DNA of 62,377 nucleotides, the filler included, from Chrysochromulina tobinii (lineage: Eukaryota): assembly GCA_001275005.1 (NCBI GenBank). It is 7 parts of 7 records of this genome, joined end to end, with 100 filler letters (N's around TTAATTAATTAA, not from the genome) between each part and the next. Parts side by side here need not be neighbours in the genome. Positions count along the whole stretch, not along the records: positions 39,609 to 55,989 come from JWZX01001107.1; 6 more parts are not named here. One strand, 5' to 3'. A program made the position numbers and the translations under genes. Below, in pieces: positions 12,214 to 55,989 of this stretch (position 1 is the stretch's first letter; the number at the start of each line of letters is the position of its first letter). The notes under the pieces are model-generated. The model was not told where the DNA came from. It ran no database searches and worked only from the letters and a program-made list of their open reading frames with translations.

Positions 12214-14687
12214 ATGGACGAAAAAGAACAATGGCTCAAGAGAATGGGTCTGCCCGGCGGGCGCCCGAGCGGCGGCAGCACCAGCGGCGGCGGCGGCGGC
12301 GGCCCGATGCCACCAGCACCAAAGCTTGACGCCAGCGGCGCGCAGTCCAACGCGCTCGTGCTGTCTTGGGATTGGCCGGGGGCGCCGGCGGGCGCAAAGT
12401 TCGCATTCTGCTACCGCGGTGCGAGTGGTGCCGGCACGTGGCGCACTGACACGATCGCTGGTGTCTCCGCCTCTGGCCACGTGCTGCGCTCGCTCAGTCC
12501 AAACACAACCTACGCCGTCGCCGTCGAGATGACGCTGGCGCAGGCCGGCACATCACCGGTTCGCGGTGCAGAGCTGATTGCAACGACGGCCCCAGCGGCG
12601 CCGAGCGGCCTGGAGGTCACAGAGGTCACCGACTCGTCCATTGCCCTGAAGTGGAACCGGTCGCCTGGCGCCGACGTGCGGTACGCCGTGTACGGCTCGG
12701 CGGCGCTCGGATTCAACAAGGTGTACACGGGCGCGGAGGCTCACTGTACGATCACCGGGCTAACCAAGGGCAAGGAGTACGGCTTCCGCGTGTGCGCGAT
12801 GAACGGGCAGGGCGGTGCCTCCGACTTTGGGCAGGAGGTCACCGTCAAGTGCGATGCAGCCGGAGCGAAGCGCGGCGGCGGCGGCGGCGGAGGCGGAGGC
12901 GGAGGCGGAGGCGCGGCGCGTGGCATCCAGGCAGAGCTGCTCACGCTCACGCACGACGCGCTCTCGATGCGATGGCCGGCGCCGCCCGGCGGCGCCACCA
13001 GCTACACAGTGGAGCTCGCCGAGGGCGATGGCGGCGTCGTGGCCGAGGGCGAGGAGTGGACGGTGATCTACGAGGGCGCACCTCCCGGTTGCGAGATCAG
13101 CTATTTGGCGCCCGAGACCGAGTACCACATGCGCGTCAACTACAAGGACCACAGCGGGCGCACGCACGACTTCGGCCCGTCGCTCATCGTGACCACGCCA
13201 GAGGAGCCGGCCAAGCCTAAGAAGGCAAGTGCGAAGAAGAAGGCTACCAGCGAGACCAAATCTGCCACGCCAAAGCGCCCACCCAAGCCGCCGCCGCCGC
13301 CGCCGCCGCCGCCCAAGCCGCCGCCGCCGCCAAAACCGCCGCCGATCCCGACGCGCCCGCCGCGCGCGCCCATCACGAAGCAATCTGGCCCGGCGCCCTC
13401 GCCTCGGCCGGCCTCTCCCCGGCCGGCAGCACCGAGCAGCTCGCGCAAGCCGCGCAGGCCTCCGCAGTCGCCTCGGCGTGGCGGTAGGGAAGACGAAGAC
13501 GAGACGGCCGCAAGCGACGAGAGCGAGGACGAGGAGGACGGCGGGCGCTCCTCCCATCGCCATCGCACGAGTGCCGGCTCGTCCTCTGCCTCCGCCATCC
13601 ACGAGCGCTTGTACGGCCTTCACCAAGGCCAGCTCGAACGCCTCAAGGAGCAGAAGAAGCAGTTCCTCGACTCGCTCAGCAGCCAAGCCGGAGCGCCGCT
13701 GCGCGAGAAGGCGGGCATCGCGATGTCGCCGCGCTCGCGTTCGAACGCTGCACCGCTCGGCGGATCCACGCCGCGCCCGGACCTCTGGCTCGGCTCGCAT
13801 GCGGCTGCGGGACCGACGACCGATAAGGCACTGCCTGCCTCGCCACGTGGGTCGGTGGCGGGGCGTACTTCGCAGGCTGGCGCCTCCGAACTCGGCGACG
13901 AGAAGCCCGGCCCGGGCGCGTACAACAGCACCTCCGACTTCAAGCCTGCCGACCGCCTGAGAAAGGACCCATCCAAAGGGTCGGCGAGCTCATTCAAATC
14001 GAAGACGAAACGGCTCTTCGACTTTGACGGCGCCGTGATCGATACGACGCTTCATCCGGGCAAGAAGCTGTCCGATGCCCCCGGCGTGGGCACATACTCG
14101 CCGGCGGACATGGGCTCGATCGAAAAGGTCGCCGAGGCGCTCAAGCGGCGCGCGGCCAAGCTCGCCACCTTGCGGCGCAATAAGGACATCAAGGAGCCTA
14201 ATCGCTTCCAGTCGGGCACTCTGCCGCCCGCGGCGACGCCTGGCCCAGGTGCGTACGACACGGATCGGCTCGCCAAGGCCAAGGAGGAGCGCCAGTACGG
14301 CGCGAAGTTCATGGCGTTCAAGAGCGGCAGCCGGCGCGCGCTGCCGTGGGGCGGGCGTGGCTCCGACGCTCCACAGTCCATCCGTGCCCGCAAGGTGGAC
14401 GACCTTGAGCTCGCCGATCTCGAAGGGCCTGGGCCAGGGGAATACGAAGCCTCCTCCATGTTTGCCAAGCCGGCGCCCTCCGCGCGCCGCCGCGGCACCG
14501 CCTGGTCCAAAGGTGCGATCTCGCTGATTGCCACTGATTGCCACTGAGTGCCACTGATTGCCACTAATTGCCACTAATTGCCACCGCCTGGTCCAAAGGT
14601 GCGCCTCGCTTTGCCCCGGAGCCGTCGATCGAAAAGATTGGGCCCTCCGCCGTGCACTACACGCCCAACTACTCGCAGTGCTCGTAG
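12214..14687 (+). CDS. Fibronectin type III + Pro-rich + SHIPPO (PGPGxY) repeat protein; exons 12214-14512 and 14599-14687
   Basis: FN3 motifs (LSPNTTYAVAV, LTKGKEYGFRVCAMN, LAPETEYHMRV) and repeats KPGPGAYN, APGVGTYS, TPGPGAYD, GPGPGEYE. Removing GT-AG intron 14513-14598 gives a C-terminus GAPRF...GPSAVHYTPNYSQCS*. Confidence 0.8.
14513..14598 (+). mobile_element. Repeat-built intron (module-B type) flanked by a 22-nt direct duplication CACCGCCTGGTCCAAAGGTGCG
   Basis: GT...AG; interior is a 10-mer array (ctgattgcca/ctaattgcca); the 3' end copies the upstream exon end. Confidence 0.75.
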
Positions 14688-38187: not shown

Positions 38188-39063
38188 CCGCTCGCCTGGT
38201 CGATTGCGTGCGTAGGGCTGCGGGTGGGACGGACGCGGCGTGGTCAGCACGGTCCGTGGCAGCGCGCGGCACGGCGGAGGGCAAGGAGCTGCAGCTCGAA
38301 GGCACCGCGAGCAGCAGCAGCTGTCCACGTGGTGCACGGGACTTGGTGGAGAGGCTGCTGGGGGCGAGCGAGCGGCGGGCCGGCGGCGGAGGACATCGGC
38401 GCGCGACCCAAGCACAAGGGCCGCCTAGCACGCGCCATCGGATCGGTTGCCTCGCGTGCGTACCTCCTCCGCCGTCAGCAGGGTGGCAGTCCGACCAGAA
38501 TGGACGTCGAAGTTTGCGTCGTGCCCCTCATATATAAGCGCACTCTCGATCCGTACTGTGGATCTCGGGGAAATAATGTCCCATGGAGGAATAGAGATAT
38601 GTGACTTCGATTCAAGTCAAGTCACGTCAAGTCATAACTGCTCGCTCGCTCGCTCGGCAACCTGGCGCGCGGCGTCTTCCCGCTCGAAATGATCCCGCTT
38701 TGTCCTCCCGCCTCCGCGGTCCCATGGCGAAAGCTAGACCAGCACCAGGGTCCTGTTGGTGTTGCGGGATCGGATCAAATCGTCCGACGGGCCGCCGTAG
38801 GTTTCAGGGAATCCTGGAATCCAAAACTTGAATGGAAACGGCCCCCACCCCCCCACATCACCTCAGACCTCAGTGGGTGCGAAGACTGAAGACACTGTGA
38901 TCTGTGTCCGGAGTGTGAGAGGTACGTTCAACGTTGCGCGTGCGCGGTGCTGCGGCCCGCGCCCAGCTCTGTGTGTGCTGGGCCTCGTGTGAGTGCTAGT
39001 TTCGGAGTGTGCACACAGCCCGCCATTGATAAAACCGTCCGGGTCCCGGCAGATAGCGATACA

Positions 39064-39120
39064 CTGAGTGGGGCGCCGTGGTGAGCACTTGCATGCTCGG
39101 TCCGGCCGATAGCGAGACAC
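39064..39120 (-). mobile_element. Module-A insert with ~22-nt exon-like duplication; host gene not resolved
   Basis: GCATGCAAGTGCTCACCACGGCGC on the - strand between CAGTGTCTCGCTATCGGCCGG and CAGTGTATCGCTATCTGCCGG. Confidence 0.6.
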
Positions 39121-39608: not shown

Positions 39609-42600
39609 CGGGTGCACGGGCGTCGTAGTGAGCGTCGACGGCGGGTGCACGGGCGAGCAAGAGGCAGGCGTGCTTGGCGTGATTGCACCGCCGGCACCAC
39701 CGCCGGCACCGCCCACCACGGCGCCGCCCACCACGGCGCCGCCGCGGCCGCCCATCTCGCTCGCGAGATCATTCGCCCGTTGGATTGGGGGCTTCAGACG
39801 CCCCGCTGACGATGCCCGTGCCGCAGGGTTCAAACGAGAGCGCACCTGTGGGGAGAGGAGGGCGCCGTGGTGAGCACTCGCCTGCCGAGCCGTGGTGCCG
39901 CAGGGTTCAGCCACGAGAGCGCACCGCCGCCGCCGCCATCAGACGGCTCTCGCGCTTCGCTGGCTCCTCGGACGGCTTCGGACGCAGCACACGCGGCGGC
40001 GCGAGTCGAGAGCGCCGTGGTGAGCACTTGCATGCAGGGCGGGTCCTCCGCGCTGTGGTAAGCACTTGCATGCAGGGCGGGTCCTCCGCGCTGTGGTGAG
40101 AGCACTTGCATGCAAGGCGGGTCCTCCGCATGCAATCGACGCACCTTCGGGCGCAGCACCCGCGGCGGCGCGAGGAGGAGCTCGGCCGTTACGTCCTCCC
40201 ACGCGCCGAGATTCGCGCCGAGATTCGTGCCGAGATAGCCGGCCGAGTAAGAGCAGCGGCCCGTCCCAGCGCTCAGCTTCTCTGGTCGGGACGCGACCGC
40301 GGGGCCTCCGTGCACGGGGCGGCTGGGGTGGTACGCGTGGGCGGGGTAGGGAGCGATTGCAGGGGGGGCCAATGGGGGGGCGATCATCTGGTCCTCGGGC
40401 ATCTGCACCTGATGAGGGAGGCACTCAGCACGCACTCGGCATGCAATTACGGGGGCAATCACGAGGGCGATCATCGGGGGGCGATCGTCGGGGGGCGATC
40501 TCAGGTGCAATCTCGGGTGCGATCTCGGGGGCGATCTCAGGTGCGATCTCGGGCATCTGCACCTGTGGAAATGTCGACTCGAAAGAATGAGTCAACGCAG
40601 CGGCGGCGGCGGCGGCGGCGGCGACGGGGTTGGCGGCGACAGCGGCGGCGACGGCGGCTGCAGCGGCGGCGGCTTCGGCGGCTTCGGCGGCGGCGGCGGT
40701 GGCAGCGGCGGCGGCGGCAGCAGCGTCGTACGCCGCGGCGGCAGCGGCGGCTTGGGCGGCGGTGATGGCGGTGGGGGCTGCGGTGGTTATGGGGGCATGG
40801 GCGCCGTGATGGGCATGGGCGCCGTGTTGGGCATGAGGAGCCGGCGGCGCGGCGCAGGACGAGCAGGTCGTGTTGGAGCGCCGTCTTGGGCAGCCCGTGT
40901 CACGCGGCGGCGACGTAGCCTCAATCGCGGCCCAGTCGACTTCAGACGCTCCTCCCTCAGGCATCGCCCCGTTGCGCCCATCTAAGCGCGACTCCTCCCG
41001 CGGACTAAGAGAGTGTTCGGAGGTGCGAGGGCTGTAGTGCGGCGTCTTGGGCGGCAGGCGCTCGACGCCCATCTCGGCGCCCATCTCGGCGCCCATCTCG
41101 GCGCCCTCGACGCTCGCCGCACCCGCCAGCACCCGCGCCACCGCATAGCCTCCCATCGCGTGGACCCGAGCCACCAGCCTCGACGCTAGCGACGCCGGAT
41201 CGGCAACGCCCACCTCGGCGCCCCGGGCGCCCGTCTCGGCGCTCTCTCGCGAGGGACGACGGAGGCCCGCGCTCACCGAGCGCCGTCCTGAGCGCCCATC
41301 GGCGCCGTCCTGAGCGCCCACGGCGGCGTAGCCCGTGCCGAGGGCCCTGGCTGCAATGGCCTGGTGGTACGGCTCGACGGAGGCCGAGGGCAGGGAGATC
41401 GAGAGCCTCGCGGGAGATCGCGGCAGATCGAGAGCGTCGCGGGAGATTGAGAGCCTCGCGGGAGATCGCGGCAGATCGAGAGCCTCGCGGGAGATTGAGA
41501 GCCTCGCGGGAGATCGCGGCAGATCGGCCACGGACGAGCCCGGCGACGAGTCGCGCAGCGTCGTACCGGGCGCCTTCGTGGGGGACACGAACTGGTCCAT
41601 GAGAGCGCTCAGCGAACTCCGATGGCTGCCCGCACTGCTCGAGCGCCGTGTTGGGCTCCCGTTGGTACCGGCACCGGCGTCACCGGCCGCGCCGAGCGCC
41701 GTATTGAGCGATCGGCGAAGGCTGCTCGTGCGAGATCCCAAATTAGGGCTGCTCGTGCGAGAGCCCAAATTAGGACGCTCCAGGACCGAGAGCGCATCCG
41801 CCACGGAACGTGGCTTGAGGCCCGCCGCACGGTCGGCCTTCTGGGCGGCGCGTACCTGTGGGGAGAGGAGGGCGTGGCGCCGTGGTGAGCACTTGCATGC
41901 CGAGGCCCGCCGCACGGTCGGCCTTATGGGCGGCGCGTACGATCACGTCCTTGCGCGTAATCAATGTTAATCAATGTTAATCTATGTAAATCAATGGTAA
42001 TCAATGGTAATCAATGGTAATCAATGGTAATCAAGGGCAGCGGTGCGTACGATCACGTCCTTGCGCAGCTCCTCGTGCCAGAGAGAGAGCACCATCGGGT
42101 AGCTCTCGTTCACGTCGAACTCGATCATCGCGTTCTCGAGCATACCTGTGGCGAAACGGGCGGGCGCCGTGGTGAGCACTTGCATGCTGGAGGGCGCTCG
42201 AGCTCGATCCTCGGGCGCCGTGGTGAGCACTTGCATGCTGGAGGGCGCTCGAGCTCGATCCGCGGGCGGGGCGTACTCTCATGCTCTGCCTGGCCCGCGC
42301 TCCGTCGCATCTTGAAGTGGCCGGCGATCACCTGTGGGGAGAGGAGGGCGCCGTGGTGAGCACTTGCATGCCGCGCTGGCGCGCGCTCCGTCGCCTCTGC
42401 AACACGGGCCCGGCTTCTCACCTGGTTGTCGGAGGCCCAGTCGATGCCCCAGGATTCCTTACGAGTGACGATCTGCATCGTGCCTATCAAGAAGTCAACG
42501 TACGCCTTCGGATCGAGCGAGTCGAGAGCGCCGTGGTGAGCACTTGCATGCACGGCAGGTCCTCCGCGCCGTGGTGAGCACTTGCATGCACGGCAGGTCC

Positions 42601-43247
42601 TCCGCATGCAATCGACGTACCTTCGGATCGAGCGAGTCGGTCCACAGGTCCGCCAGCTCGAACCAGCACCAGTAGAACCGCTCCTTATCCATGAAGCGCT
42701 TGCCGTCGGCGTCTTTGACCCAGTCCTCCGCGGCCGCCTCGAAGGCGGTCTTGGGCGGCGTGGTCGGGTCGAGGGCGAGGACGAGCTTTCGATGCATCAC
42801 GAGGTACTCCTCCCTGTCGATCGCCCCGCTCCGGTCCGTATCCGTCGCCTTCCAGATCGTCTCGAGCGCGCGCACGACCTTTGGGTGCGAGAGCAGCAAG
42901 ACACGCCGGCGCAGGCCCTCCTCCGTGTAGTACTGCGCGAGCAGCCGCTTCTCGCGGCGTGAGGTCGCATGCAGCTTGGCCTTCTCTCCGAGCTCGCGCA
43001 TGCGCTCGATCTTCACTTGGATCTCGGGCCGCGCCCAATACTCCTCGTCGCGCAGCGGATCGGAGGAAGCTGGGGCCGCCGCCGCCGGCACCATCCACGC
43101 TGGCGGCGGAGCAGCGTCGTCATCGTCGGATCCTGGCGACGGCAGATCAGCGTCCAGGGACGGCAGACCAGCGTCCAGGGACGGCTCGCCGTCGCCGGCC
43201 GCCTCGAAGGCGTTCTTGGGCGGCCAGCCAGTCGCCACGTCGTCCAT
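39609..43247 (-). CDS. EF-hand protein with long low-complexity C-terminus; 7 introns (42620-42506, 42421-42332, 42276-42146, 42050-41856, 40562-40409, 40144-39976, 39924-39846); 3' truncated
   Basis: DTDRSGAIDREE loop and WFELADLWT. Removing the seven GT-AG introns gives one continuous frame to the contig edge. Confidence 0.78.
39846..39924 (-). mobile_element. Module-A intron, acceptor-supplying type
   Basis: Starts with a copy of the downstream exon (GTGCGCTCTCGT..TGAACCCTGCGGCAC) and ends GTGCTCACCACGGCGCCCTCCTCTCCCCACAG. Confidence 0.8.
39976..40144 (-). mobile_element. Module-A intron, donor-supplying type, three tandem cores
   Basis: Starts GTGCGTCGATTGCATGCGGAGGACC and ends with a 30-nt copy (2 mismatches) of the upstream exon end ...CCGAAG. 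Confidence 0.8.
40409..40562 (-). mobile_element. Module-B intron, acceptor-supplying type
   Basis: Starts with a copy of the downstream exon GTGCAGATGCCCGAG and ends CTGAGTGCCTCCCTCATCAG. Confidence 0.8.
41856..42050 (-). mobile_element. Compound (nested) intron: TTGATTACCA array plus module A, with two duplications
   Basis: 22-nt duplication GCGCAAGGACGTGATCGTACGC and a 39-nt copy (1 mismatch) of the downstream exon; ends CTCTCCCCACAG. Confidence 0.8.
42506..42620 (-). mobile_element. Module-A intron, donor-supplying type, two tandem cores
   Basis: Starts GTACGTCGATTGCATGCGGAGGACC and ends with a 19-nt copy CGACTCGCTCGATCCGAAG of the upstream exon. Confidence 0.82.
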
Positions 43248-43671
43248 TTTCGACGCGCGTCGGGACGGACTCGCTGAGCAGACCGAGGAAAGGCTCGGAA
43301 GGGAAACGCCTCATACGGCGCCCTTTTGCGTGAAGTAGGTTATACTTCCAAACGCAGCACTCCACCGCGCGTGCAGCGCCTATACACCTGTACATGGTAC
43401 ATGTACATGTACCATACAGCACAGATCAGAAAACAGGGAGCATGCCCCATGCTCTGCCGTCGCGCAGAGTAGAGCTCACCACACGAGACCGTCGAGTACA
43501 TCCCGACCTTAGCCATGCTGCGACTGCCCAACCCCCGTGTGTCATGCACTTCGCTGCTGTACGAATGGCTGCTGCTGCCGCTGCTATTGCTGCTATTGCT
43601 TCGATGTCTGTGCCTGCCGCTGCTGCGAGAGAGCGCGCGCCGTGCCGGATCTTGGGCAGCTCCTTCCCCTA

Positions 43672-44208
43672 TTAGGCAGACTTCGTTACCGTCTTCTTGG
43701 CGAAAAAGTTGATGAACATGCCGAAGAAGGATGGCTTCTTCGTCGCCGCCTTCTCCGCCATCGGTTGTGCCAGCTCCGCCATCGGTTGTGCCTGCTCCGC
43801 CAACACTGAGCCCGCCTCCTCACGCTCATTCATCTCCGCAAGCACTGCAAACGGGTTCTCGCTCGCATGCTTCGTGACGTTGAACGGCGAGGTGATCTCC
43901 GGCAGCACCTCCTGTGGCGCGTCGTTCTCATTCTTCATGAGGCCGGCCGAGCGCACCGGCCGCTTCTTTGCGATCTTCTTGATCGGGCTGCTTGGCTTGT
44001 CAGCCTTGGGAGCCGGCGCCTTCTTGACGGAGGCGGACGTGCTGGTGGCGGCGGCAGCGCGGCGAGTGGTAACCGAGGGCTTCTTGCTAAAGGTGATTGT
44101 CTGCAGATCCTCGGGCTCCAGATCATTCAAAGAAGACCTGGTCACAGGATTGCGGTTCGGTCGGTGATGCGGGCAAGACAGTGCCGAGCATGGAGATCCA
44201 ACACTCAA
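43672..44208 (-). CDS. Hypothetical Lys/Ala-rich protein; 5' structure uncertain
   Basis: Codon-biased open frame; no recognisable domain. Confidence 0.4.
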   Translation of the reverse strand: MSVGSPCSALSCPHHRPNRNPVTRSSLNDLEPEDLQTITFSKKPSVTTRRAAAATSTSASVKKAPAPKADKPSSPIKKIAKKRPVRSAGLMKNENDAPQEVLPEITSPFNVTKHASENPFAVLAEMNEREEAGSVLAEQAQPMAELAQPMAEKAATKKPSFFGMFINFFAKKTVTKSA

Positions 44209-44535
44209 CGGCAGGTGTCTGTAGTGGCCGGCAATGAGTTGGTAGGAGGAGGGGTATGGGGACCGAAGGCCCCCACGCGGCGGCGCACCATTCTCCCTTG
44301 CTGGCCGGCATCGTCGTCGGCGATTTCAAATCGAAGGCCCGCGACGAAGTTCCACAGGAAGAGAAATAGTTGACGATATCCGGGCGACCTGCATCGTCAG
44401 AATTGATCTTTCAACGCAGAAGATTTCAGGAAATTGACGTTACTCACCGCTTGCGGACTTCAATACGAAACACTGTTAGGAACCTACGAAACACGATCTC
44501 GCTGGTTGCCGCTGCAAGGCCTCGGCCCTGGTAAA

Positions 44536-45770
44536 ATGCCGATCACCCATCTCTTTCACGTGCCGAATCTTGACTATCCAGGCGTGCGGCATTTGCATCG
44601 CGATCCAGACATAATTGCCATCGATCACTTTGCCAGCGACGACGAGTGCGACGGCCTGGCGCAGCTCTACGCGCGCTCGCACGGCCGAGCGCGCCCATCG
44701 GCGACTGCTCCTGGTCAGGAGGCGCTGCGTACGTCGACGACCGTGTTTCCGGACGAGCTAGAGGTGCGATGGCTGCGCGAGCGCATCGCTCAGGCTACCA
44801 ACATCGCATCGCTCGAGCAGCTGGAACCGACCAAGCTGACCCGCTATGCTGCGGGCGAGTACTTTCGGAAGCACATCGACGCCTCCTTCCTCAACGAGAA
44901 GATGTGGGCTTACGCCGCGCGCCTCGCCGGCGTCGACGAGGACGGCGTGCAGGCGCCGTGCAGCTGGCCGAGCCGCTTCGTCACCCTCTTCCTCTACCTC
45001 AATGACGTGGACCGAGGCGGACGTACGCGCTTCCGTTGGCTCCACAGCTCGGCATGCGGAGGGCGGCATGCGAGGGCGGCATGCGAGGGCGGCATGCGAG
45101 GGCGGCATGCGAGGGCTCACCACGGCGCCATCCTCTCCCCACAGGTACGCGCTTCCGGTGGCTCGACGGCTCCGGATCCATGCCTGGCGGCGCTGTCTTC
45201 ACGCAGTCGATCGAGGCACTCGCTGCGGCCGCGGCCGCCGCCGATGCTTCTTCCGTGCCCATCACGGCGCTTCCTCACGAATTCCGTGCCCATCACGGCG
45301 CCGATGCTTCTTCCGTACCAGGGACAGCCGAGCCGCCTGCGACCGCGCCCATCACGGCGCCTGACGAACCACAGGGTTCGACCAGCGTGAACGAGCTGCC
45401 TGCGACCGCGCCGGCCTTTCGAGAGCCCGCGTCGGAGTTGAACATCAAGGAGCTCAACATCAAGCCGATCAAGGGGACGGCGATCTTGCACTTTCCGAGC
45501 ACACGCCAAGAGTTCGGATGCGTACCAGATCCGCGCACGATGCACGAGAGCGAGCCAGCTCTGGACGAGAAGCTCATCGTGCAGCAGTTCATCTGGCCCG
45601 TGCCGCTGCGAGCGCCGAGTGCGGCAGACGGCCATGGCTTCGCCAGCGAGGCTCAGGGGCAGGCGCAGGGGCAGGCCGAGGGCATCATGTGGGGCGCCCA
45701 GCACGGCGCCCAACATGAAGACGTGCGGGCCGAGTGGGCGGCCATCCTGGCCGCCGCTGGCAGCGGCTGA
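44536..45770 (+). CDS. Prolyl 4-hydroxylase-like 2OG-Fe(II) dioxygenase; exons 44536-45022 and 45145-45770
   Basis: RTSTT, YFRKHID, RFVTLFLYLNDVDRGGRTRF, KPIKGTAILHF, DPRTMHESEP, EKLIVQQFI. Confidence 0.88.
45023..45144 (+). mobile_element. Module-A intron, acceptor-supplying type
   Basis: First 28 nt copy the downstream exon (3 mismatches); GGCATGCGAGGGC repeats; ends CTCACCACGGCGCCATCCTCTCCCCACAG; removal restores the conserved GGRTRF motif. Confidence 0.85.
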
Positions 45771-45951
45771 GTGGTGCCGTTGAACAGCAACAGCACCAGG
45801 CAGGCAGACGTGTAAAAGTTATGATCTCCAAAGTCATCATCGTTTTCACAACCGTTTCGCTTCCTGGCTTCGGGAGCTCTGCGTTCGCCCCGTCTGTCGC
45901 CCACTTGGCGACTCGCGACGGCCCTCAGTTCGACTTGGACAAAGCTGCTCG

Positions 45952-48900
45952 ATGCAGGCAGAGCTGCTCGCGAGCAGCACGCCCGCGTCGGCGGCTCTCG
46001 CGGCGGCGTTGGGAGCGAACCCGGCAGAGCTCAAGCACGATTGGCATCTCGTGGGGCCGGAGCTGACGCGCGTGGAGTTTGCATACCTCGTCTCGCGCCA
46101 TCTGGGTCAGCACGCGGAGCTCTCGCAGCGGTCGCAGAACGAGCTTCTCACCGGCACGGCGGAGCTCTATGAGGAGGCGACGGTCCTGCAAGGCGACAAG
46201 ACGCGCATCTCGTGGACTGCGTTCTCGCAGGCGCTGGTCGCGGCGACGCTCGCCGCCGGTCCGCCGCCGCGCCTCGCCTCGGACGCACGCCTGGTACGCT
46301 CGCGCGTCATCGTCGACGGCAGCAACTTAATCTCGAAAGCCAAGCCCAAGGCCGCCATGTTCAGCAAGAAGCGCCCCGCGGAGGGTGGACTCGTGATCTC
46401 GCCTGATCTCGCGATCCATTTCCTGCCGAAGCCGGTCTCGCGATTCCTCGTGTGTGAGGAGAACGCCGACAGCCCCGACTACCGGCTCTCGCTCTGGACG
46501 ATGAGCGGCGGCGCCGGCGAGCAGACGAGCACCCGCCTACTTAGCTGTCTGAACGTGCTGCAAGAGCGTGGTCCACTACCGTCGAGCGTTGCGCTCGTGC
46601 CGACGCTACGCTACCCGACTCGTGAGACCTCTGTCGGGGCCATCACCACGGGTGATTGCACCGCTGATTGCACCGCTGATTGCACCGCTGATTGCATGCT
46701 GATTGCATGCTGATTGCATGCTGATTGCCATGGATTGTGATTGCTGACCACCAATTACCTCCGTCATCGTCCACTGATGGCCTCCCTCATCAGGCCTGAC
46801 GATTGTCATCGGCTCGTCCACACGCGCCCTCACCCTCGTGGTCCTCTCTGCGCCGCCCGGCGGCGGACGCAACACCAAGTTCTCCGCGGATGAGGTCGTC
46901 CAACTCGGCACACCCGCGCCCATCACGGCGCTCTTGGCCTCCCGGCGTGCCGGTGGTACCCCTTTGTTGTGGGGCGGCGCGGCCGACGGCCACGTGTACA
47001 CATGGGCTCTGAGCAGCTGGCCTTGGCCCCTCATACAAACGTTCCAGGCGCACTCGGCCGGCGTCACCGGTCTCGTGTCGCTCCCTAATTTGGAATGGGT
47101 CTGCTCCTCGTCCTCGGACGGCACGTGCCGCTTGTGGCTCCTTGACTCAGGGCTCACCTCGTCAGGTACGTTGATTGCCACCGATGACCTGCCTTGCATG
47201 CAAGTGCTCACCACAGCGCGGCTCCTTGACTCAGGGCTCACCTCGTCAGCCGCCGATGCGCCCAACACGGCGCTCAAGGGTGACAAGAGCTCACCTTCGA
47301 AGGCCTCCCCCTTTGGGAACAAGGCGTTGCAGGGCGCCTGGCTGGGCGAGAAGGAGAAGGGCGCTCGGCGAATCTCGGCGCTCGCGTATTGTGCGGAGCG
47401 CTCTGATTGCGAGCGCAATCATGTGCTGATGGCCGCCGATTCTGATGGCATCTCTGATGGCATCTCTGATGGCATCTCTGATGGCCTCCCTCATCAGGTG
47501 ACGAGCGCAATCATGTGCTGATGGCCGTTGGCCGCCGAGTCACGGTGTATAACCCCTTGCTGTGCGAGAGGGTGGCGACCCTCGCGGAAGCTACTGATCC
47601 AATCCAGGTGCGCTGATTGCCGCTGATTGCCGCTGATTGCCGATGATTGCCCATGATGACCGCTGATGACCGCTGACGACCGCTGATGACCCTCTGATCC
47701 AATCCAGGGCATCTGTGCCACGATGCCCGGCCTCTTGGTCACCTCTGACACAGGGGGGCATGTACGGGTCTTTGACTCGACTTGCCACGAGCTCCTACAG
47801 ACTCTCCAGCTGGTACCTTCAGGCATGCTCCCTCGCGCCCCGCGCTGCCCTAATAACCCTAATGAGCGCCCTAATGAGCGCCCTAATGACCATTTACCTG
47901 GTACCTTCAGGCATGCTCCCTCGCGCCCCGCGCTGCCCTAATAACCCTAATGAGCGCCCTAATGAGCGCCCTAATGACCATTTACCTGGTACCTTCAGGC
48001 ATGCTCCCTCGCGCCGCGCCACCCTTATTACCCAAATGAGCGCCTTAATGAGCGCCCTGATGACCCTCTACCCGGTACTTTCAGGCATCCTTCCTCGCGG
48101 CGTGTCGCCCACGTTGCATCACACGCTCCTCGTCGACGGCTCGCTGCTCTGTGCGGCCGCGGGTGTGTGCTTGCATCTGAGTGCCTCTGAGTACCTCTGA
48201 TTGCCTCTGATGGTGTCTGAGTGCATCGGATTACCCTCTGATGGGATGACTCTGATGGACTCTGATGGACTCTAATGGACTCTGATGGACTCTGATGGAC
48301 TCTGATGGACTCTCTCTGAGAGGCCTCTGATTGCGGTCTGACCGCCTCCAATTGCCCCTGAGCGATTCCAATTGCCACCTTCATTAGCCTCCAATTGCCC
48401 CTAAGCGATTCCAATTGCCACCTTCATTAGCCTCCAATTGCCCCTAAGCGATTCCAATTGCCACCTTCATTAGGCTCGCTCTCCCTCCTCAAGTTTCGTC
48501 AGCCGTCCCTAGAAGAGCTTCGAGAGCGTGCGCTCGGGACGGCGCTTGGCCTTGCTGATGGCGCCAAGGTCGGCGGCGACGGCGCGGAAGGCGGCGCCGC
48601 CGATGCGGACGCACCGAAGCCACTCGACGCACAGTCGTCGCGCTCGGCTGTAGCTGTAGCCATTTGCAGGCGCATGGGACGGCTTGTCACCATTAGTGGT
48701 CGCGACGTGAACACCTTCGACGCCATCAGCGGCGCCCCCCTCGCGGGCGCGATGGATGTGTGCCCTGCCGCTCTCTCGGTGCGTGCGCTTCCTGATTGCA
48801 TCTCTGATGGCCTCCCTCATCAGGTGCTCGCGCTCGATCGGACGGATTGCATGCTGATGGCCTCCCTCATTGCATGCTGATGGCCTCCCTCCATCAGGTG

Positions 48901-51900
48901 CTCGCGCTCGATCGGACGGATTGCATGCTGATGGCCTCCCTCATTGCATGCTGATGGCCTCCCTCATCAGGTGCTCGCGCTCGATCGGACGGAGCGGACG
49001 GCGTTCGTCGGTTCGCTTGGCGGCGAGATCGTGCAGCTCATCTTGTCAGAGTCGTCCGTGCAGGTGCTGCGCAAGCTTGGGCTCTGTCACAGCACCGAGC
49101 TCGTCGCTATGAGCATGCTCACGAGCTGGGGTACGGGGCCATCCTCACAATTGACGAACTCCTCACAATGGACGGAACTCGAAAGGATCCGGATCTCTGA
49201 GTGCATGCTGATTGCCTCCCTCATCAGGTACGGGGGCCATCCTCACCTCTGACGGAACTCGAAAGGATCCGGATCTCTGAGTGCATGCTGATTGCCTCCC
49301 TCATCAGGTACGGGGGCCATCCTCACCTCTGACGGAACTCGAAAGGATCCGGACCTCCATCGCCATGGCACGCTCGTGCTCTCGCTCTCCTCGGATGGCA
49401 ATCTCAACGTCATCTCCGCGCACGAAGGCAAGAACCTCGCGACCCTGCGGCACCGCGCCATTGGGGAGAGCGTCTGTGTGGCCTCATGCTCCATCTCATC
49501 GCTGATCGCCGTCGCCGGCGTCACCGAGGGCGAGGGCGTGCTGGCGGTGCATCGCATGTTTGACTCCTCGACGGTGCGTCTCCAGTGATTGCATGCTGAT
49601 GGCCTCCCTCATCATCGCATGTTTGACTCCTCGACGGTGAGTGCATGCTGAGTGCATGCTGATTGGATCCCTCATCGGGTGACGTACCCTGAGTGCCTCC
49701 CTGAGTGCATGCTGATTGCATCCCTCATTAGGTGCTGGACGCTCCCGCTGAGTGCCTCCCTGAGTGCATGCTGAGTGCCTCCCTCATCAGGTACGCATCC
49801 ACTGCCCCGCGACCAAGATCAAGATGGCGGAGGTGACCGCGCTCGCTTTCCTCTCCAGTCCGCCCGCGACGGCGCCCGCGACGGCGCCCGCGATGGGAAC
49901 GTCCCCCATCGCCACCAAGCCGCCGCCCAGCACGGCGCCTGACGAACCGCAGGGCTCGTCCAGCGGCGCGAACTTGCACCTGAGTGAGCAGTACAGCCTG
50001 GCGTCACGTCGACGACTCCTACTCGTCGCTGACGCGACCTCGACGCTTATCCTCTTCGACGTGTCCGCATCGGGACGGCCGCCGCACCCGTTGCAGCGCT
50101 TCACGCACCCGCGCCCGCGTGCCACGTGGCTCTCGTCCAGGTGCGCTGATTGCCGCTGATCGCCCCGCTGATGACCCTCTGCCACGTGGCTCTCGTCCAG
50201 GTGCGCTGATTGCCGCTGATTGCCGCTGATTGCTCCTGATGACCGCTGATGACCCTCTGCCACGTGGCTCTCGTCCAGTCGAGCCGCGAGCTTGAGTCGT
50301 CAGCACGATGCGCAGAAGGTCAAGGCGCTGAGGGGCACTGTGGAGCGTTCGGTGCGCGAGCTGTCGAGAGATTTGAGGACCTCTGATGACCTCTTGATTG
50401 CCTCCTTCATCAGGTGCGCGAGCTGTCGAGAGATCTGATGGCACCGCTGATGGCGCCGCTCATTGCGCCGCTGATGGCGCCGCTCATTCCCTCCATCCTC
50501 AGGTGCGTGACAATGAGCTCACAGCGTACGCTTCGCTCCATAACATTGAACGCGAACACAAGCTCCGCACCGAACTGGACGCTCGGGGCGCTCACCGCGG
50601 CGCTACTCGGGCAGCAGCAGCAGCAGCTGCTGCTGCTGCCCGAGACGGCGCGTCCCCTGGACCGCCCACCGCCCGAGACGGCGCGTCCCCTGGACCGCCC
50701 ACCGCCCGAGACGGCGCGTCCCCTGGACCGCCCACCGCCTACCGTTCACGTTCACGCTCTCTCGATTCGGCACCGCTCACACCTCTCATGGCGTCAGCCT
50801 CCACCCCCGCGCTCCTGATGCCCAACTCGGCGCTCAAGACGCCCAACTCGGCGCTCGGTACGCCCAACTCGGCGCTCACGCGCGCCACCACGTCGTCGGC
50901 CGAGGGCCTCTTGACACCGCACAATCCTAATATGGCCATTGGAACCCCGACGCCCTTTGCCAAATTAGGCAACGCCCCGATGCCTCATTTGGCCGCGGGC
51001 GCGTCGCTGCGCCCACCGCCGCTCATGGTGGTGGAGGAGGAGGCCAAGGCCTACGCAGGCGGCGCCGGCGCGCCGGTGGTGCCCACGACGGCGCTCCGAG
51101 GCGCATTCCGATCGACCGAGCCACACTCGATCGCACGGCCGCCGCAGTCCGTGCGTCTCGAGCCGACGTTGCCTAATTTGGCAGACGCAGTCTCTTTTGA
51201 CGTGGCGAGCCGCCGGGCCTTTCCGATGGGCGCCGGGGCGAGCGGTCTGCACCCTCTCCAGGTGCCCCAGACGCCGGTAGGCTTACCGGTAGGCATCGGT
51301 GCAGGCAGCAGCTGCACCCCCCACACCCCACACACACCCCACACCCCCCACACCCCCTACAACCCCCACACCCCCAGCAGCGTCGGGCTCGGCCGTCACG
51401 GTCTCCCAACGTGCGTGCAGCCGCTGCCGACGAGCGGCGGCGCTCACGGCGGCGCCCTCCTCGCTCTGCCCACGTGTGGGAAGCCGGTCTGTTCACAGCC
51501 CAACTTCACAGCCTTGCCGGCCGGCTTGCCCTCTGTGCTCCCGTCCTCGCTGCCCACCGCGCACCATGCGAACGCCATGCCCTTATTTGGGCACTCAGAG
51601 CTCGGCGCGGGAGATCGGAGCTCGGGAGATCCGAGCTCGGGAGATCCGAGCTCGCTCGCCTTTCCGACGGAGAGTCAGTGCGTCACCGCGATCGCCGTCG
51701 AGCCCGCCTCGTCCATTTCGTCAGTTTCGTCAGTTTCGTCAGTTTCGTCCACCGGGCTGCCGGCGCCGCTGCGCTTCGTCACCACCGACGACGCGGGCGG
51801 CATGTGCGCCTGGCGCCTCTCGTGCGTCGCGGGCAAAGCGGGCGGCGCCGGCGTCCCCCCAACGGCTCCCACGTACAAGGTTCGTTGATTGCCACTGATG

Positions 51901-53003
51901 ACCTGCCTGGCATGCAAGTGCTCACCACGGCGCTCTCGCTCTCGTGTACAAGGTGGAGCTGCTCAAGCGTTGGCGTGGCACAGCGGAGGAGGATAAGGTC
52001 TTGGGCATCGGGGGCAACAACGGCATCACAGGCGTCGTCGTGATCGCTGCGCGGCGCGGCGCCAGAGGAGGGGCACCCTTATTAGGAGCACCCTTAGTAG
52101 GGGCACCCTTATTAGGAGCACCCTTAGTAGAGGATGCCGACGAGGTGGCTCTGGGCACGTCCGTGCCGCTCGTCGTCGTCGCGGCATGCGCGAACGGCAC
52201 TCTGAGCGCGTTCGGCGTGAACTCGGGGCAGCGATTGGGCCTGATGACGACCAGCGGCCTCACCAAAAGCACGGGCCTCTCCAGGCCGAACACACCCGAC
52301 AGTGCGCCCTCCGGCATGCATGTGCTCACCACGGCGCCCCGCTCACTTCCCCACAGGTACGGGCCTCTCCAGGCCGAACACACCTGCGTCAGTGACCAGC
52401 ACGGCGCTCCTCGCCGGCGCGCCGGGTACGTGGCACGACTATCATTGGCAACTGCCGCTGCATGCCCGGGAGGACGCGACGCTCGCGGAGACTGTGAACG
52501 ATCTCGCCGACGAGCTGCGCACGCATGTGCCCAGCTCGGCGCTCCCCCTCTTCCCGCGTGCGACGGTCGCCGGGGTGGGCGGCGCGGACGAGGAAGAGGA
52601 CTTGCCTAATAAGGAAGAGGACTCGCCTAAGAAGGGCAAGCTCATGGAGAAGGCGCTCGCGACGCTCGCGCAGGTGACGGCGGAGGCAGAGGCCGCCAGG
52701 GATACGACTCACCTCGAACTGGCCGCCGATCTGAGCGATGGGAACCCCACAGTGCGACGACGTGCGGCACAGGAGCTGCGAAAGCACCAGCTGCTCTTTT
52801 CGTACCTGGACAAGTCGGTGCCGCCGCGACAGCGCGCCGAGGCCGAGAAGAGCAGAGCCGGCGCGCGCAGGCCGAGTCACGAGGAGGGGTCGGATGCGGG
52901 GGCTCCCAGATGTCGCAGCCCCGAAGCCCTTGCATTCGCGAGCAGAATCAAGGAGGCGCGCGAGGCGATGCTTAGCGCCTCTCCGAAAGGGGCAAACACT
53001 TGA
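45952..53003 (+). CDS. Large WD40/beta-propeller-like protein with 13 predicted introns (46652-46793, 47166-47249, 47391-47497, 47608-47707, 47823-48084, 48163-48473, 48779-48970, 49131-49307, 49574-49790, 50141-50278, 50352-50502, 51880-51952, 52269-52356)
   Basis: WD-like segments (QTFQAHSAGVTGL...SSSSDGTCRLW; VTSDTGGHVRVFD). The listed introns join the ORF fragments into one frame. Two need GC donors and the last donor is ambiguous. Confidence 0.7.
47166..47249 (+). mobile_element. Module-A intron, donor-supplying type, perfect 30-nt duplication
   Basis: GTACGTTGATTGCCACCGATGACCTGCCTTGCATGCAAGTGCTCACCACAGCGC followed by a copy of 47136-47165. Confidence 0.85.
47391..47497 (+). mobile_element. 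Module-B intron containing a 26-nt copy of the downstream exon
   Basis: CGAGCGCAATCATGTGCTGATGGCCG is duplicated; ends CTGATGGCCTCCCTCATCAG. Confidence 0.8.
47608..47707 (+). mobile_element. Module-B intron, donor-supplying type
   Basis: GTGCGCTGATTGCC repeats followed by a 14-nt copy CTGATCCAATCCAG of the upstream exon. Confidence 0.8.
48779..48970 (+). mobile_element. Triple-stacked module-B intron with internal AG|GT junctions at 48823/4 and 48897/8
   Basis: Each CATCAG is followed by GTGCTCGCGCTCGATCGGACGG, the head of the downstream exon. Confidence 0.8.
49131..49307 (+). mobile_element. Double-stacked module-B intron with a 46-nt exon-head duplication
   Basis: 49228-49273 is identical to 49308-49353; internal AG|GT at 49227/8. 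Confidence 0.82.
50141..50278 (+). mobile_element. Double-stacked donor-supplying module-B intron
   Basis: The 21-mer TGCCACGTGGCTCTCGTCCAG occurs three times; internal AG|GT at 50200/1. Confidence 0.8.
51880..51952 (+). mobile_element. Module-A intron, donor-supplying type, short duplication
   Basis: GTTCGTTGATTGCCACTGATGACCTGCCTGGCATGCAAGTGCTCACCACGGCGCTCTC, ending with a GTACAAG copy of the upstream exon. Confidence 0.8.
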
Positions 53004-53163
53004 ACTTGAACTTGAACTTGAAAAAGTCAGATTTAGATCTCCGAAAGTTGCAGTGGGTGCACCAGAACGGCGCTCGACCCGCTGCGCTGTACATCGTGAT
53101 TTTTGGGGGCGCTTGGACCGGAGGCGCGTGTGAGGCGTGACACTGTCGTCCGCACTGCGTCCC

Positions 53164-55408
53164 ATGCCCACCAAGACCGAGCGCATCCAGCGCGCATTCG
53201 AGATCTTCGATACCGACGGCAACGGCAGCTTGTCGATCGCTGAGCTCAAGGCGGTGTTGACAAGGCCCGGAGGTGGCCATGCATTGACGGACAAGGAGGT
53301 GGCGGCGATCATCGCCGAGTTCGATGCCAATGGCGACGGCGAGCTGCAGATCGATGAGTTTGCGCTCATGTGGGGGCCTCTAGTCGAGCAGCAGCTGCAG
53401 GAGGAGGAGGACGACGACGACGAGGAGGAGGAGGACGACGACGAGGACACGCCATTGGCGACGCCATCGACGAGCTTCATCCGTCGGTTGGTCAAGGGCG
53501 CCACCAAGGACAAGGGAAAGGGGAAGGCGAAGAGCAAGAGATCGTCCAGGGCGAAGAGCAAGCTTACGGCCAAGCCGTCGAAGGCGAAAAGCGCCAGAGC
53601 GGCCTCGCTCGCCGACCCTTCCGTCGATGAGAAAGCGGCGTCGAAGGGGTCTCTGCAGTCGTCGGCGGAGCTCGAGGCGCTCGTGGAGGAGGAGACGCGC
53701 GCGCTGGGCGAACTCGAGGCGCGGCTCGCGGCGGGCGGGCTCGACACTTTTGAACGCCGGCTGGGCGCGGCGCTGCTGGAGGAGGCTACTGTGAAGCAGG
53801 CGCTCGCGGGCAAGAGGAGCGCGCTGTTGGAACTGGTGCGCGCCTGATGTGCATGCTGATTGCGTCCCTCATTAGCGCTGTTGGAACTGGTGCGCCTGAT
53901 GGCATCTCGGAGTGCATGATGATTGCGTCCCTCATTAGGTTGAGGAGTGCGCCTGATGGAATCTCGGATCGTCTACGTCTGAATGTGTCGAGTGCATCTC
54001 GGACTGCATCTCTCATTGCACCTGTGATTGGCTCCATCATCAGGTTCGCTCGTGGGATCGTAACGGCGACGGCATGATCAACAAGGTGGAGCTGCGCCAG
54101 GTGGTGCGTAATAAACTCAAGGTGCACGCGACCAACGACGAGATCGACGACCTCTTCGACATCTTCGATGCCGACCACTCGAGTGCGCTCTGATGACCGT
54201 TGATGCGCTCTGATGACCGTTGATGACTTCTGAGGACCGTTGATGACCTCTGATGACCTGATGACCACTCGAGTGCGCTCCTGCTGCAAACGGCCGACCA
54301 CTGATGACCTCGGATGACCGTTGATTGCGTGCCTCATCAGATGCACTCGACCTCGACGAGCTCGGGCTCTGCCTACGCGCGCTGCAGGAGGCGGCCTCCG
54401 CCGCGCGCGCGGAGCTCGCCGAGATCTCGAGCCTGATTGACGAAGCACGCGCTCGGCTCGGGCAGCTGAGGGACGCGGTAGCGCTCATGAAACGGTTGGA
54501 GCAGGAGCAGGTGCGTGATCTGGAGGCGGAGATGCTGACAGTTGATTGATTGCCATGGATGGGCCCTGATGACACTGGATTGCAATTGAGCGCCGCAGGC
54601 TCGCTAATTGCCACCGATTGCCTCCCTAATTGCCACCGATTGCCTCCCTAATTGCCACCGATTGCCTCCCTAATTGCCACCGACTGCCTCCCTAATTGCC
54701 ACCGATTGCCTCCCTAATTGAGCGCCGCAGGCTCGCCATCTGGACAAGGGGCGGCCCTCCTCCAACGTGCCCTTGCGGATTCGCGCCGGGCGCCACTTGA
54801 CGAAGCTCAACCTCAAGATCCCGTTCGTGGTCAAGGGCTTTCCAAATCAGGCGCCCGAGGGCTTCGCTGGTCGCGAGGCGTTCGCGGCGGGCATCCGAGC
54901 GCTCCGAATGGCGGGCGGCGCGCTCGAGGACGCCGAGCTGGACAAGTGGTTTGATGCGGCGCTCCTTGAATGCATCGACGCGGGCGTCTCGATCCCGAAC
55001 GGCGGAGTGAAGCTGCAGCTCGTGCTGAGCGATGCGGTGGCTGAGGCGGCCAAGTTTGCGCAGGAGGCCGAGGAGAAGGCGGACGCAACCGAGCTTGTCA
55101 AGCTCAGGCGCACGGCACGCGATCAGCAGCAGGCGATCCGTGCGGCGCGCGCGGAGCAGCAGGCTCGCCGTGCCGAGCGCGAGGCGGCGATGCGTGCGGC
55201 GGCCGAGGCGAAGCAGAAGGCGGAGGAGGAAGCGCGCCAAGCCAAGATCCGCTCGTTCAAGCGACGCAAGAGCGTCAAGGAAGGGCATGACGCGAGCTTC
55301 GCTGCGCGTGTGGCCAGCAGGCGCGAGGTGCGCGGAGATCTCGCCGACCCCTTTTCGAGAACACCGTTCCTCGACGCGCTCAAGGCGGCTTCGAAGCCGC
55401 TCTGGTGA
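53164..55408 (+). CDS. Multi-EF-hand protein with coiled-coil C-terminus; introns 53836-54043, 54183-54340, 54511-54730
   Basis: Loops DTDGNGSLSIAE, DANGDGELQIDE, DRNGDGMINKVE and DADHSNALDLDE (the last spans a junction). Intron removal joins the ORFs in frame. Confidence 0.8.
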
Positions 55409-55989
55409 GCGCTCACCACGACGCGCTCACCACGACGCGCTCAAGGCGGCTTCGAAGCCGCTCTGGTGAGCGCCGTGGTGAGCGCGCGTGCCGGCTTCGA
55501 GGCCACTCTGGTGAGCGCCGTGGTGAGCGCGCATGCGCCGCCGCCCTACCAAGAGCCTACCACATTTCACACCACATCAGTCATCGCCAGACGCCACAGA
55601 TGAGGCATCTTGACCACGTTGCAGGCACGCCGATGTAAGGGTGGCAAAGGTGTACACTAGGATTACGCGCCACGAAGGGCAGCGCGGGGCGATGTCGTTG
55701 CTCGTTCCCTGCGCTGTGCGGGGCACTGTTCGGTTATAGGCAGTGGGGCAGTGCTAAGCGGTAGTGCATGAAGAGTGCTAGTGCGTCATGGGCCGAGAGG
55801 CACGTCTGCCATGACTCCCGTCGCCCCGGTAAGGTGTCCTCCCTGTGAAACCGTGCGGGAAACGTCTGGGATCGGCGGGTCGTGCCTTAAGCCGGGAGGG
55901 GGTGCCTTAAGCCGCGCCGGTACTTAAGTCGGGTCACCGCGACTTAAGATGAAATCTCCCTTAAGTCACGCGTGCTCCGACTTAAGTCG

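What the first reader, a model, noticed from the sequence alone, without database searches (positions are those of the whole stretch)
39846..54730. Apparent intron-generating system: partial shared intron module plus a copy of the neighbouring exon that supplies the missing splice site
Seen in sequence: about 20 introns in four unrelated genes of this contig (EF-hand, P4H, WD40-like, second EF-hand), plus 14513-14598 and 39064-39120 on other contigs, share one design with two modes. In mode 1 the insert brings the GT donor and the intron ends in a direct copy of the upstream exon tail, whose AG is the acceptor (47166, 47608, 50141, 51880, 42620, 40144, 14513). In mode 2 the intron starts with a copy of the downstream exon head, whose GT is the donor, and the insert brings the acceptor (45023, 49131, 39924, 40562, 42050, 48779). 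Duplications are 7-46 nt and often perfect, and predicted splicing restores the protein without a scar (e.g. P4H GGRTRF). Established: introner transposons co-opt splice sites from target-site duplications, but those are usually short and fixed in length, often with terminal inverted repeats. Here the duplications are long and variable and I see no TIRs. Inference: recent intron gain by a different route, such as templated insertion during staggered-break repair or reverse-transcribed intron fragments.
Basis: partly seen in the sequence, partly recalled or inferred. Interest (0 to 1): 0.92.

Follow-up and report, generated by a model that had tools for sequence, protein, structure and literature searches.

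The report
New introns copied from neighbouring introns
In a Chrysochromulina-type alga, many short introns consist of half of an intron plus a 10-45 base copy of the adjacent exon that supplies the other splice site; some are present in one sample and absent in another, and the half is likely copied from an existing, often nearby, intron during DNA break repair, which would be a transposon-free way of making new introns.

Summary
Removing 24 predicted introns restores four reading frames, and 17 of the 24 begin or end with a copy of the neighbouring exon. In related metagenome contigs the design is general: exon-head copy at 116 of 184 acceptor modules (control 9/1000), median 27 nt, no fixed length; exon-tail copy at 22 of 40 donor modules (14/1000). 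The P4H intron is spliced in an RNA contig and in the Chrysochromulina parva gene model, and distant homologues run through its position uninterrupted. New here: two presence/absence pairs with clean empty sites; daughters carry pieces of a parent intron's own exon copy, joined by 2-7 nt microhomology; such relatives are enriched within the same locus (p=0.0005); and one intron carries another gene's exon-intron junction, so the template was DNA or pre-mRNA, not an excised intron. Best reading (0.5): template-switch repair of staggered breaks copying existing introns, filtered by selection for scarless splicing. Rivals: Replitron-like or retrotransposon-driven mobilisation. No enzyme was found. 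The 2025 introner catalogue lists C. tobinii with zero families. This scan noted the same footprint earlier on another piece of this genome (e1-2577349).

The parts
45023..45144 (+). P4H intron, mode 2: 28-nt exon-head copy gives the GT, degenerate X core plus acceptor
   Evidence: Spliced RNA contig laid with exactly the 3 predicted mismatches; spliced length 370 aa equals C. parva model P0001; no insertion in 10 distant homologues
44536..45772 (+). Prolyl-4-hydroxylase-like (2OG-FeII) host gene
42506..42620 (-). Mode 1 intron, donor module with doubled X core plus 19-nt exon-tail copy; likely parent of the 40144 intron
   Evidence: three RNA runs stop at 42620, the DNA run goes on (weak hint); orthologue P0061 contiguous here
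42332..42421 (-). Intron with X acceptor; exon copy internal, not anchored
42146..42276 (-). Intron with two X cores, no anchored copy
41856..42050 (-). Nested intron: mode 2 X intron plus a second donor-side insert with a 16-nt exon-tail copy
40409..40562 (-). Mode 2 intron, Y acceptor, 15-nt head copy
39976..40144 (-). Mode 1 intron, three X cores, 30-nt tail copy; shares locus-private module variants with 42620 and switches to its own exon at a 5-nt microhomology
39846..39924 (-). Mode 2 intron, X acceptor, 12-nt anchored head copy
39620..43247 (-). EF/EH-domain host gene (7 introns, open to the contig end)
45952..53003 (+). WD40 host gene, 13 introns, 1669 aa after splicing
   Evidence: collinear with P0065 at the 11 junctions inside the alignment
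46652..46793 (+). Y-type intron of 10-nt repeats, no anchored copy
   Evidence: RNA contigs stop or split here
47166..47249 (+). Mode 1 intron: 54-nt donor module ending at the X core plus a perfect 30-nt exon-tail copy
   Evidence: an X15 RNA contig leaves the genomic path at 47161 with 453 more letters (splice inferred)
47391..47497 (+). Y-acceptor intron, 11-nt head copy
47608..47707 (+). Mode 1 intron, 10-nt-repeat donor module, 14-nt tail copy
47823..48084 (+). GC-AG intron with both splice sites from the duplicated AG|GC exon piece (third mode)
48163..48473 (+). Repeat-rich intron, no anchored copy
48779..48970 (+). Y-acceptor intron with stacked (exon head + module) units
49131..49307 (+). 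Mode 2 Y intron, unit doubled
49574..49790 (+). Y intron, internal exon copies, none anchored
50141..50278 (+). Mode 1 intron, 21-nt tail copy, unit doubled; donor variant shared only with 47608
50352..50502 (+). Y intron, internal exon copy
51880..51952 (+). Mode 1 intron, X core, 7-nt tail copy
52269..52356 (+). Mode 2 GC-AG intron, X acceptor, 28-nt head copy
53836..54043 (+). Second EF-hand gene intron 1 (Y modules, internal exon-tail copy)
   Evidence: an X15 RNA contig leaves the genomic path at 53834
54183..54340 (+). Second EF-hand gene intron 2 (Y)
54511..54730 (+). Second EF-hand gene intron 3
14513..14598 (+). Intron in the fn3/SHIPPO gene, 17-nt tail copy plus 5-nt head copy
39064..39120 (-). 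X core between duplicated flanks; not shown to be an intron

Best explanation
These are recently gained spliceosomal introns made of one half of an existing intron plus a 9-50 nt direct duplication of the target exon, and they likely arise when a staggered DNA break is repaired by a polymerase that briefly copies the end of another intron, often one a few kb away, and then switches back. Shown: the geometry, open frames after splicing, splicing of the P4H intron, empty sites in related samples, carry-over of the parent's own exon copy into the daughter, 2-7 nt microhomology at the switch-back point, and local enrichment of related modules. Inferred: the break with 3' overhangs that makes the duplication; a DNA or unspliced pre-mRNA template; a Pol-theta-like or SDSA-like host enzyme; and selection keeping, in exons, mainly events whose duplication begins with GT/GC (mode 2), ends with AG (mode 1) or spans AG|GT (third mode), because these splice without a scar. 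The 24-nt X core holds a branch-point-like CTCAC and is kept by both modes, probably because the new intron needs it. Unequal exchange between the long duplications would then stack or delete units.
For: Duplication lengths are continuous, median 27 nt, no peak. Two empty-site pairs: L072 has an 81-nt insert absent from L011/L037 at 98% flanking identity; L045 has 3 x 86 nt absent from L066, whose single copy carries a pair of variants that no single crossover of the L045 allele gives, which favours gain. In both, the new module matches the intron 340-520 nt away. Five parent-daughter pairs switch at 5, 2, 7, 5 and 5 nt of microhomology. Shared derived module characters (>=6): 7 pairs in 5 loci against 0.25 expected, p=0.0005. 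L055's intron holds about 40 nt of L099's coding exon followed by L099's donor module, so a template crossed an exon-intron junction. Short core fragments also lie outside splice modules and are flanked by duplications at 19 of 57 sites against 59 of 400 random positions. Breaks with 3' overhangs give small tandem duplications in mammalian cells (PMC8355091, passages).
Against: No enzyme is identified. 19 of the 26 strongly related module pairs lie in different loci, and a stricter test finds only 2 loci, so copying is not only local. Sharing an acceptor tract does not go with a longer shared exon head (8.5% against 7.0%), so priming by microhomology at the fixed end has no general support. 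The junction-crossing template is a single case. The sharp left edge of the core at GCATGC (63% falling to 31%) looks like a cis-signal of a mobile element and is not explained by generic repair. The signature (fixed end, fuzzy end from the parent's flank, variable duplication, RG target) is the one described for Replitron-1. Direct RNA evidence covers one intron. Empty sites could in principle be loss or collapse between long repeats.
Confidence: 0.5

Rival explanations
1. The modules are tiny non-autonomous elements moved by a Replitron-like HUH transposase: a fixed end joined at an RG target, a fuzzy end taken from the parent's flank, and a variable duplication.
For: PMC10288648 (parts 3-4 read) describes exactly these signatures for Replitron-1/N1 and reports a Replitron protein at one locus of the C. 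tobinii genome. Mode 1 modules follow AG at 26 of 40 sites, and the core has a sharp edge.
Against: No terminal direct repeat in either module (read from the listings). Mode 2 would need the opposite strand and an AC target. Two unrelated acceptor families (X, Y) behave alike. No significant fold. No Rep or RT domain in the 68 longest of 170 ORFs from the loci. One insert overruns the 'fixed' end into the parent's exon.
Confidence: 0.2
2. A non-LTR or Penelope reverse transcriptase copies pre-mRNA or intron RNA at its own staggered nicks (target-primed), giving variable duplications and truncated inserts.
For: Variable duplications flank non-LTR insertions (PMC9977147 passages), and non-LTR introners exist (5% of classified cases, PMC12130899 passage). 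Mode 2 has an exact 3' end at the AG and a ragged 5' end. Nascent RNA could explain the local bias. A pre-mRNA template is compatible.
Against: No poly-A or repeat tail at the fixed end. Mode 1 has its fixed end at the 5' side and its ragged end at the 3' side, the reverse of TPRT. Long inserts do not stop at a parent's 5' GT (4 of 42). No RT nearby.
Confidence: 0.2
3. The spliceosome reverse-splices one end of an excised intron into R-loop DNA, and repair makes the other end.
For: Proposed for TIR-less introners (PMC10996645 passages). Fixed ends coincide with splice sites, and several units are added at existing junctions. Targets look like proto-splice sites (NG before the copy at 77 of 103, AG at 37).
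Against: An excised intron cannot supply the 40-nt exon piece in L055. Inserts pass the branch point. Full or partial cores occur on the strand opposite to nearby acceptors (26 of 98 acceptor-less cores, mostly short fragments).
Confidence: 0.06
4. Old introns secondarily invaded by repeats, or assembly artefacts.
For: Introns are unstable: stacked units differ in number between samples. 7 of 24 introns lack an anchored copy and may be older.
Against: Distant homologues on long contigs run through the P4H and EF-gene positions. Empty sites exist in near-identical samples. DNA contigs of run X6 cross several introns with no differences. Read-through proteins from other assemblies carry the same P4H intron.
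Confidence: 0.04

Closest known systems
Introners that co-opt one splice site from a TSD (Chrysochromulina MAG family 5 in Gozashti 2022, PMC9860276 Fig. 2C; Polarella classes, bioRxiv 10.1101/2020.10.14.339549)
   Same: Repeated intron sequence at unrelated positions; one splice site carried, the other taken from the duplication; scarless; no TIR in the Chrysochromulina family.
   Different: Published TSDs are 3-9 nt and fixed per family (4 nt in that Chrysochromulina family); here 9-50 nt and variable. Only half of each intron is shared. Daughters inherit the parent's flank. Parents are often local.
Replitron-1 / Replitron-N1 of Chlamydomonas reinhardtii (PMC10288648)
   Same: One fixed end, one fuzzy end derived from the parent's flank, variable TSD including an RG target (matches mode 1).
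   Different: Those are 0.9-3.6 kb elements with terminal direct repeats, under-represented in exons and introns and not reported to make introns. Here the inserts are 30-60 nt, have no terminal repeat, occur in mirror-image modes and have no transposase found.
Daphnia pulex new introns from staggered double-strand breaks (PMC4202315)
   Same: Polymorphic new introns with a direct repeat of the adjacent exon end, and repeated rounds of internal duplication.
   Different: There the exon repeats are 4-12 bp and the source of the insert is mostly unknown. Here the repeats are longer and the source is an identifiable existing intron.
Intron gain by tandem genomic duplication of AGGT (PMC3265369, abstract start seen only)
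   Same: The duplication supplies splice sites; 47823-48084 and possibly 14513 take both from it.
   Different: Most cases here add a foreign half-intron that brings the branch point and one splice site.

Membership tests
Introner (broad: repeated element that creates introns) | Related sequence at many unrelated, recently gained intron positions | tested here: met
   133 distinct core sites; gain shown
Introner (broad) | Copies alike from end to end, descended from one element | tested here: not met
   One half is the host's own exon copy; none of the 18 sites with a long donor half is a stand-alone two-ended element by my reading
TIR/MITE introner | Short TSD of fixed length | tested here: not met
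   9-50 nt, continuous
TIR/MITE introner | Terminal inverted repeats | tested here: not met
   Ends read from the listings; folds no better than shuffles
Replitron non-autonomous element | Fixed end at RG, fuzzy end from parent flank, variable TSD | tested here: met
   Mode 1; mode 2 is the mirror image and does not have an RG target on the copied strand
Replitron non-autonomous element | Short direct repeats at both termini | tested here: not met
   None visible in the 54-nt donor module or the acceptor modules
Replitron non-autonomous element | Autonomous Rep HUH partner with the same termini | not testable with these tools
   No genome held; none in 68 ORFs near the modules
SINE / non-LTR retroposon | Variable TSD and truncation at one end | tested here: met
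SINE / non-LTR retroposon | Poly-A or tail repeat at a fixed 3' end; structured RNA origin | tested here: not met
   Fixed end is the AG or the GT; no Rfam match in the window
SINE / non-LTR retroposon | Partner reverse transcriptase | not testable with these tools
   No genome held
Templated insertion by end-joining (TMEJ-like) | Insert copied from nearby or ectopic sequence with microhomology at the switch | tested here: met
   2-7 nt in 5 of 5 hand-picked pairs; local enrichment
Templated insertion by end-joining (TMEJ-like) | Microhomology priming at the entry end | tested here: inconclusive
   6 nt in the window pair, but no general trend
Templated insertion by end-joining (TMEJ-like) | Dependence on polymerase theta | not testable with these tools
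   Needs genetics

The most novel reading that the evidence does not exclude
Introns in this alga reproduce without any transposon: a host repair process copies half of an existing intron, usually in cis, into a staggered break, and the long target duplication supplies the missing splice site. Each new intron can then be the parent of the next, giving traceable intron pedigrees within a gene, which end-to-end similarity searches for introners miss.
Probability: 0.45. Interest if true: 0.92.

Novelty: new variant of a known kind. Interest (0 to 1): 0.8.

Why it matters
Where new spliceosomal introns come from is a long-standing question. Outside transposon introners the source of the inserted sequence is rarely found, as the Daphnia study states. 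Here the source can be named case by case, because daughters carry a piece of the parent's own exon copy, and the process is still polymorphic, so it can be watched in a culturable alga. It also suggests that introner catalogues undercount intron-generating systems: C. tobinii, a congener of the C. parva-like organism here, is listed with 0 families in the 2025 survey; I did not test the C. tobinii genome itself. If a Replitron turns out to be the driver instead, this would be a Replitron-made intron family, which a search for Replitron plus intron (7 papers) did not show in titles or abstracts.

Tried and rejected
No whole genome is held, so no genome-wide census or search for an autonomous partner was possible. 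The joints table showed 15 rows, all cross-matches between repeat modules and none a predicted splice joint (223 rows not shown); contig stops at 42620, 46652 and 53837 fall on the last base shared by the spliced and unspliced forms but are only weak hints. RNA evidence rests on that one laying. RNA folds of four module stretches were no better than shuffles (z 1.23 to -0.83). Rfam found nothing in the window. Pfam found no RT, transposase or HUH domain in 24 window and homologue proteins or in 68 of 170 long ORFs of the loci. The viral collection gave one hit, at the end of a phage-like contig, probably chimeric. Copying to the 5' end of an excised intron was tested and not seen. Extra microhomology at the fixed end was tested and not seen. 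No C. parva gene model came back for the EF and WD40 genes. My first EF-gene and WD40 splice models had wrong coordinates and were corrected. A first search for foreign pieces was swamped by module hits and was redone with masking. Loci dropped before counts: 17-19 duplicates or orthologous re-samples, listed in each script. Counts include tandem units separately, and the loci were chosen for holding the X core. Ten literature searches found no description of this system. Hovde's genome papers on C. parva did not appear in the listings, and supplements were partly unseen (PMC9860276 file cut; 2 of 14 files of PMC12130899 not searched).
Full report
Setting. The window is a string of contigs joined by N linkers; the finding lies on the contig 39609-55989. 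Exon 1 of the P4H gene is 100% identical to a protein labelled as a Chrysochromulina parva gene model, so the organism is C. parva or a very close relative. No genome is held, so wider evidence comes from 132 metagenome loci that hold the 24-nt core (about 1800 stretches estimated in the collection), one laying of three RNA runs and one DNA run, and three protein searches.

Observation. I modelled all four genes. Removing 7, 1, 13 and 3 introns gives open frames of 898 aa (to the contig end), 370, 1669 and 552 aa. 17 of these 24 introns have an anchored copy of 7 nt or more, and 7 do not. One (47823-48084, GC-AG) takes both sites from the duplication. The element at 39064-39120 has the core and a duplication, but no scarless GT..AG that I can find.

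Anatomy. There is a donor module of about 54 nt that begins GT, runs through 10-nt TGATTGCC-like units and ends at the X core; an X acceptor (core, pyrimidine tract, CAG); and a Y acceptor ending CCTCCCTCATCAG. The core holds a branch-point-like CTCAC (motif recalled) and is common to both modes. In the loci plus window, 184 of 357 cores are followed by an acceptor; the next exon starts GT or GC in 168 of 184; and its head is copied upstream in 116 of 184, against 9 of 1000 shuffled pairs. Copy lengths run from 9 to 50 nt (two longer ones are probably tandem units), median 27. Donor modules: 22 of 40 have an exon-tail copy (20 of the 26 that follow AG), against 14 of 1000. Y acceptors: 60 of 119 against 43 of 600. 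These counts include tandem units and come from loci chosen for the core. There are no terminal inverted or direct repeats, no poly-A, no fold better than shuffles and no Rfam match.

Splicing. One X13 RNA contig covers 44520-45050 with three differences and two spare letters. The spliced message laid on the intron's own exon copy predicts exactly three differences there, at 45036, 45043 and 45046, and a break after 45050. The C. parva model has the same 370 aa and no insertion. Two X15 contigs leave the genomic path at 47161 and 53834 with over 400 letters left, and RNA contigs stop at 42620, 46652 and 53837 where DNA goes on; these are weaker hints. The joints shown were all repeat cross-matches. 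So splicing is shown for one intron and inferred for the rest from frames and homology.

Age. Close relatives (92-99% identity) read through a 93-nt form of the P4H intron, one with the canonical core. Ten more distant homologues have no insertion, five of them recorded on contigs of 7.6-88.9 kb. An orthologue of the EF gene on a 12-kb contig is contiguous across the first four intron positions. Two sites are polymorphic. L072 has an 81-nt mode 2 insert where L011 and L037 have one clean copy. L045 has three 86-nt units where L066 has one copy; that copy matches L045's exon at one diagnostic position and L045's intron copies at the other, a combination that no single crossover of the filled allele gives. 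This favours gain over loss or collapse, though loss before those mutations is not excluded. Unit numbers also vary between samples.

Source of the insert. The spacer between the exon copy and the core is often a remnant of another intron's exon copy, which names the parent. In five pairs (L043, L072, L066 to L045, L061, and window 42620 to 40144) the daughter passes between its own exon copy and the parent's flank across 5, 2, 7, 5 and 5 shared bases (pairs hand-picked). Both polymorphic inserts match the intron 340-520 nt away. Among 206 module clusters in 111 loci, pairs sharing six or more derived characters fall within one locus 7 times (5 loci) against 0.25 by permutation, p=0.0005; the other 19 such pairs are between loci. 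A stricter test finds 4 pairs in 2 loci against 0.12. Six variants chosen after the fact are each confined to one locus or its orthologue. An intron in L055 holds about 40 nt of L099's coding exon followed by L099's donor module: the template crossed an exon-intron junction, which an excised intron cannot do. Against parts of the model: there is no general extra identity at the fixed end, and the core's left edge is sharp.

Mechanism. The simplest account is a staggered break whose overhangs become the duplication, with one end extended briefly on an existing intron (DNA or pre-mRNA) and returned by microhomology. In exons, selection would keep events that splice without a scar, which gives the two modes and the third; inside introns anything can stay. 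The break, the enzyme and the selection step are inferred. I give this 0.5.

Known systems. Introners co-opt splice sites from TSDs of 3-9 nt, 4 nt in a Chrysochromulina MAG family (PMC9860276, passages and a cut supplement; bioRxiv 2020.10.14.339549, parts 1-2 of 4; review PMC11282704, passages). C. parva and C. tobinii appear in the 2022 genome list but not among the introner-bearing rows that I could see, and C. tobinii has 0 families in the 2025 data (PMC12130899, passages and 12 of 14 supplements). Replitron-1 leaves the closest signature: RG target, fixed end, fuzzy end from the parent's flank, variable TSD; a Replitron protein is reported from C. tobinii (PMC10288648, parts 1-5 of 7; PMC9977147, passages). 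It differs in size, in terminal repeats and in lacking a mirror mode. Daphnia neointrons have 4-12 bp exon repeats and mostly unknown sources (PMC4202315, passages). Reverse splicing into R-loops is proposed in PMC10996645 (passages). This works like an introner but fails the membership tests for TIR introners, SINEs and Replitrons that I could run.

Verdict. Real, recent and ongoing intron gain by a route that differs from catalogued introners; a new variant of a known kind, interest 0.8. I did not inspect that locus, but my loci show the same family independently. The pedigrees, empty sites, local bias and junction-crossing template are not in that note's summary.

Noticed in passing
window 45250-45730: P4H exon 2 holds in-frame duplications with short fragments of the core between them; they differ among close homologues in alignment A1, so the same process appears to add low-complexity coding sequence.
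   Followed up: partly
window 14680-14760: A full X core in antisense to the fn3/SHIPPO gene lies between duplicated flanks just where the frame stops; it may have truncated the gene or form an intron with a 9-nt scar.
   Followed up: no
window 33650-33690: A Y acceptor module sits in antisense inside the uninterrupted 1110-aa ARM/U-box reading frame.
   Followed up: no
window 55400-55530: Short core fragments in both orientations, with duplications, around the stop codon of the second EF-hand gene.
   Followed up: no
window 34867-38200: An ankyrin-like gene on the minus strand built of repeated exon-plus-intron units, with introns made of the same 10-nt repeats.
   Followed up: no
window 58126-62300: Long intron-free reading frames; 58126-60201 has no Pfam match, and the rest was not scanned.
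   Followed up: partly
window 46524-46578: DNA run X6 differs from the window and from the three RNA runs at four positions: another allele or strain.
   Followed up: no
L001 2990-3060: The only viral-collection hit is an X intron end joined to a phage-like primase contig; probably chimeric.
   Followed up: partly
L070 18-41: A full antisense X core inserted at a donor junction, with a duplication that spans CAG|GTGAG.
   Followed up: no
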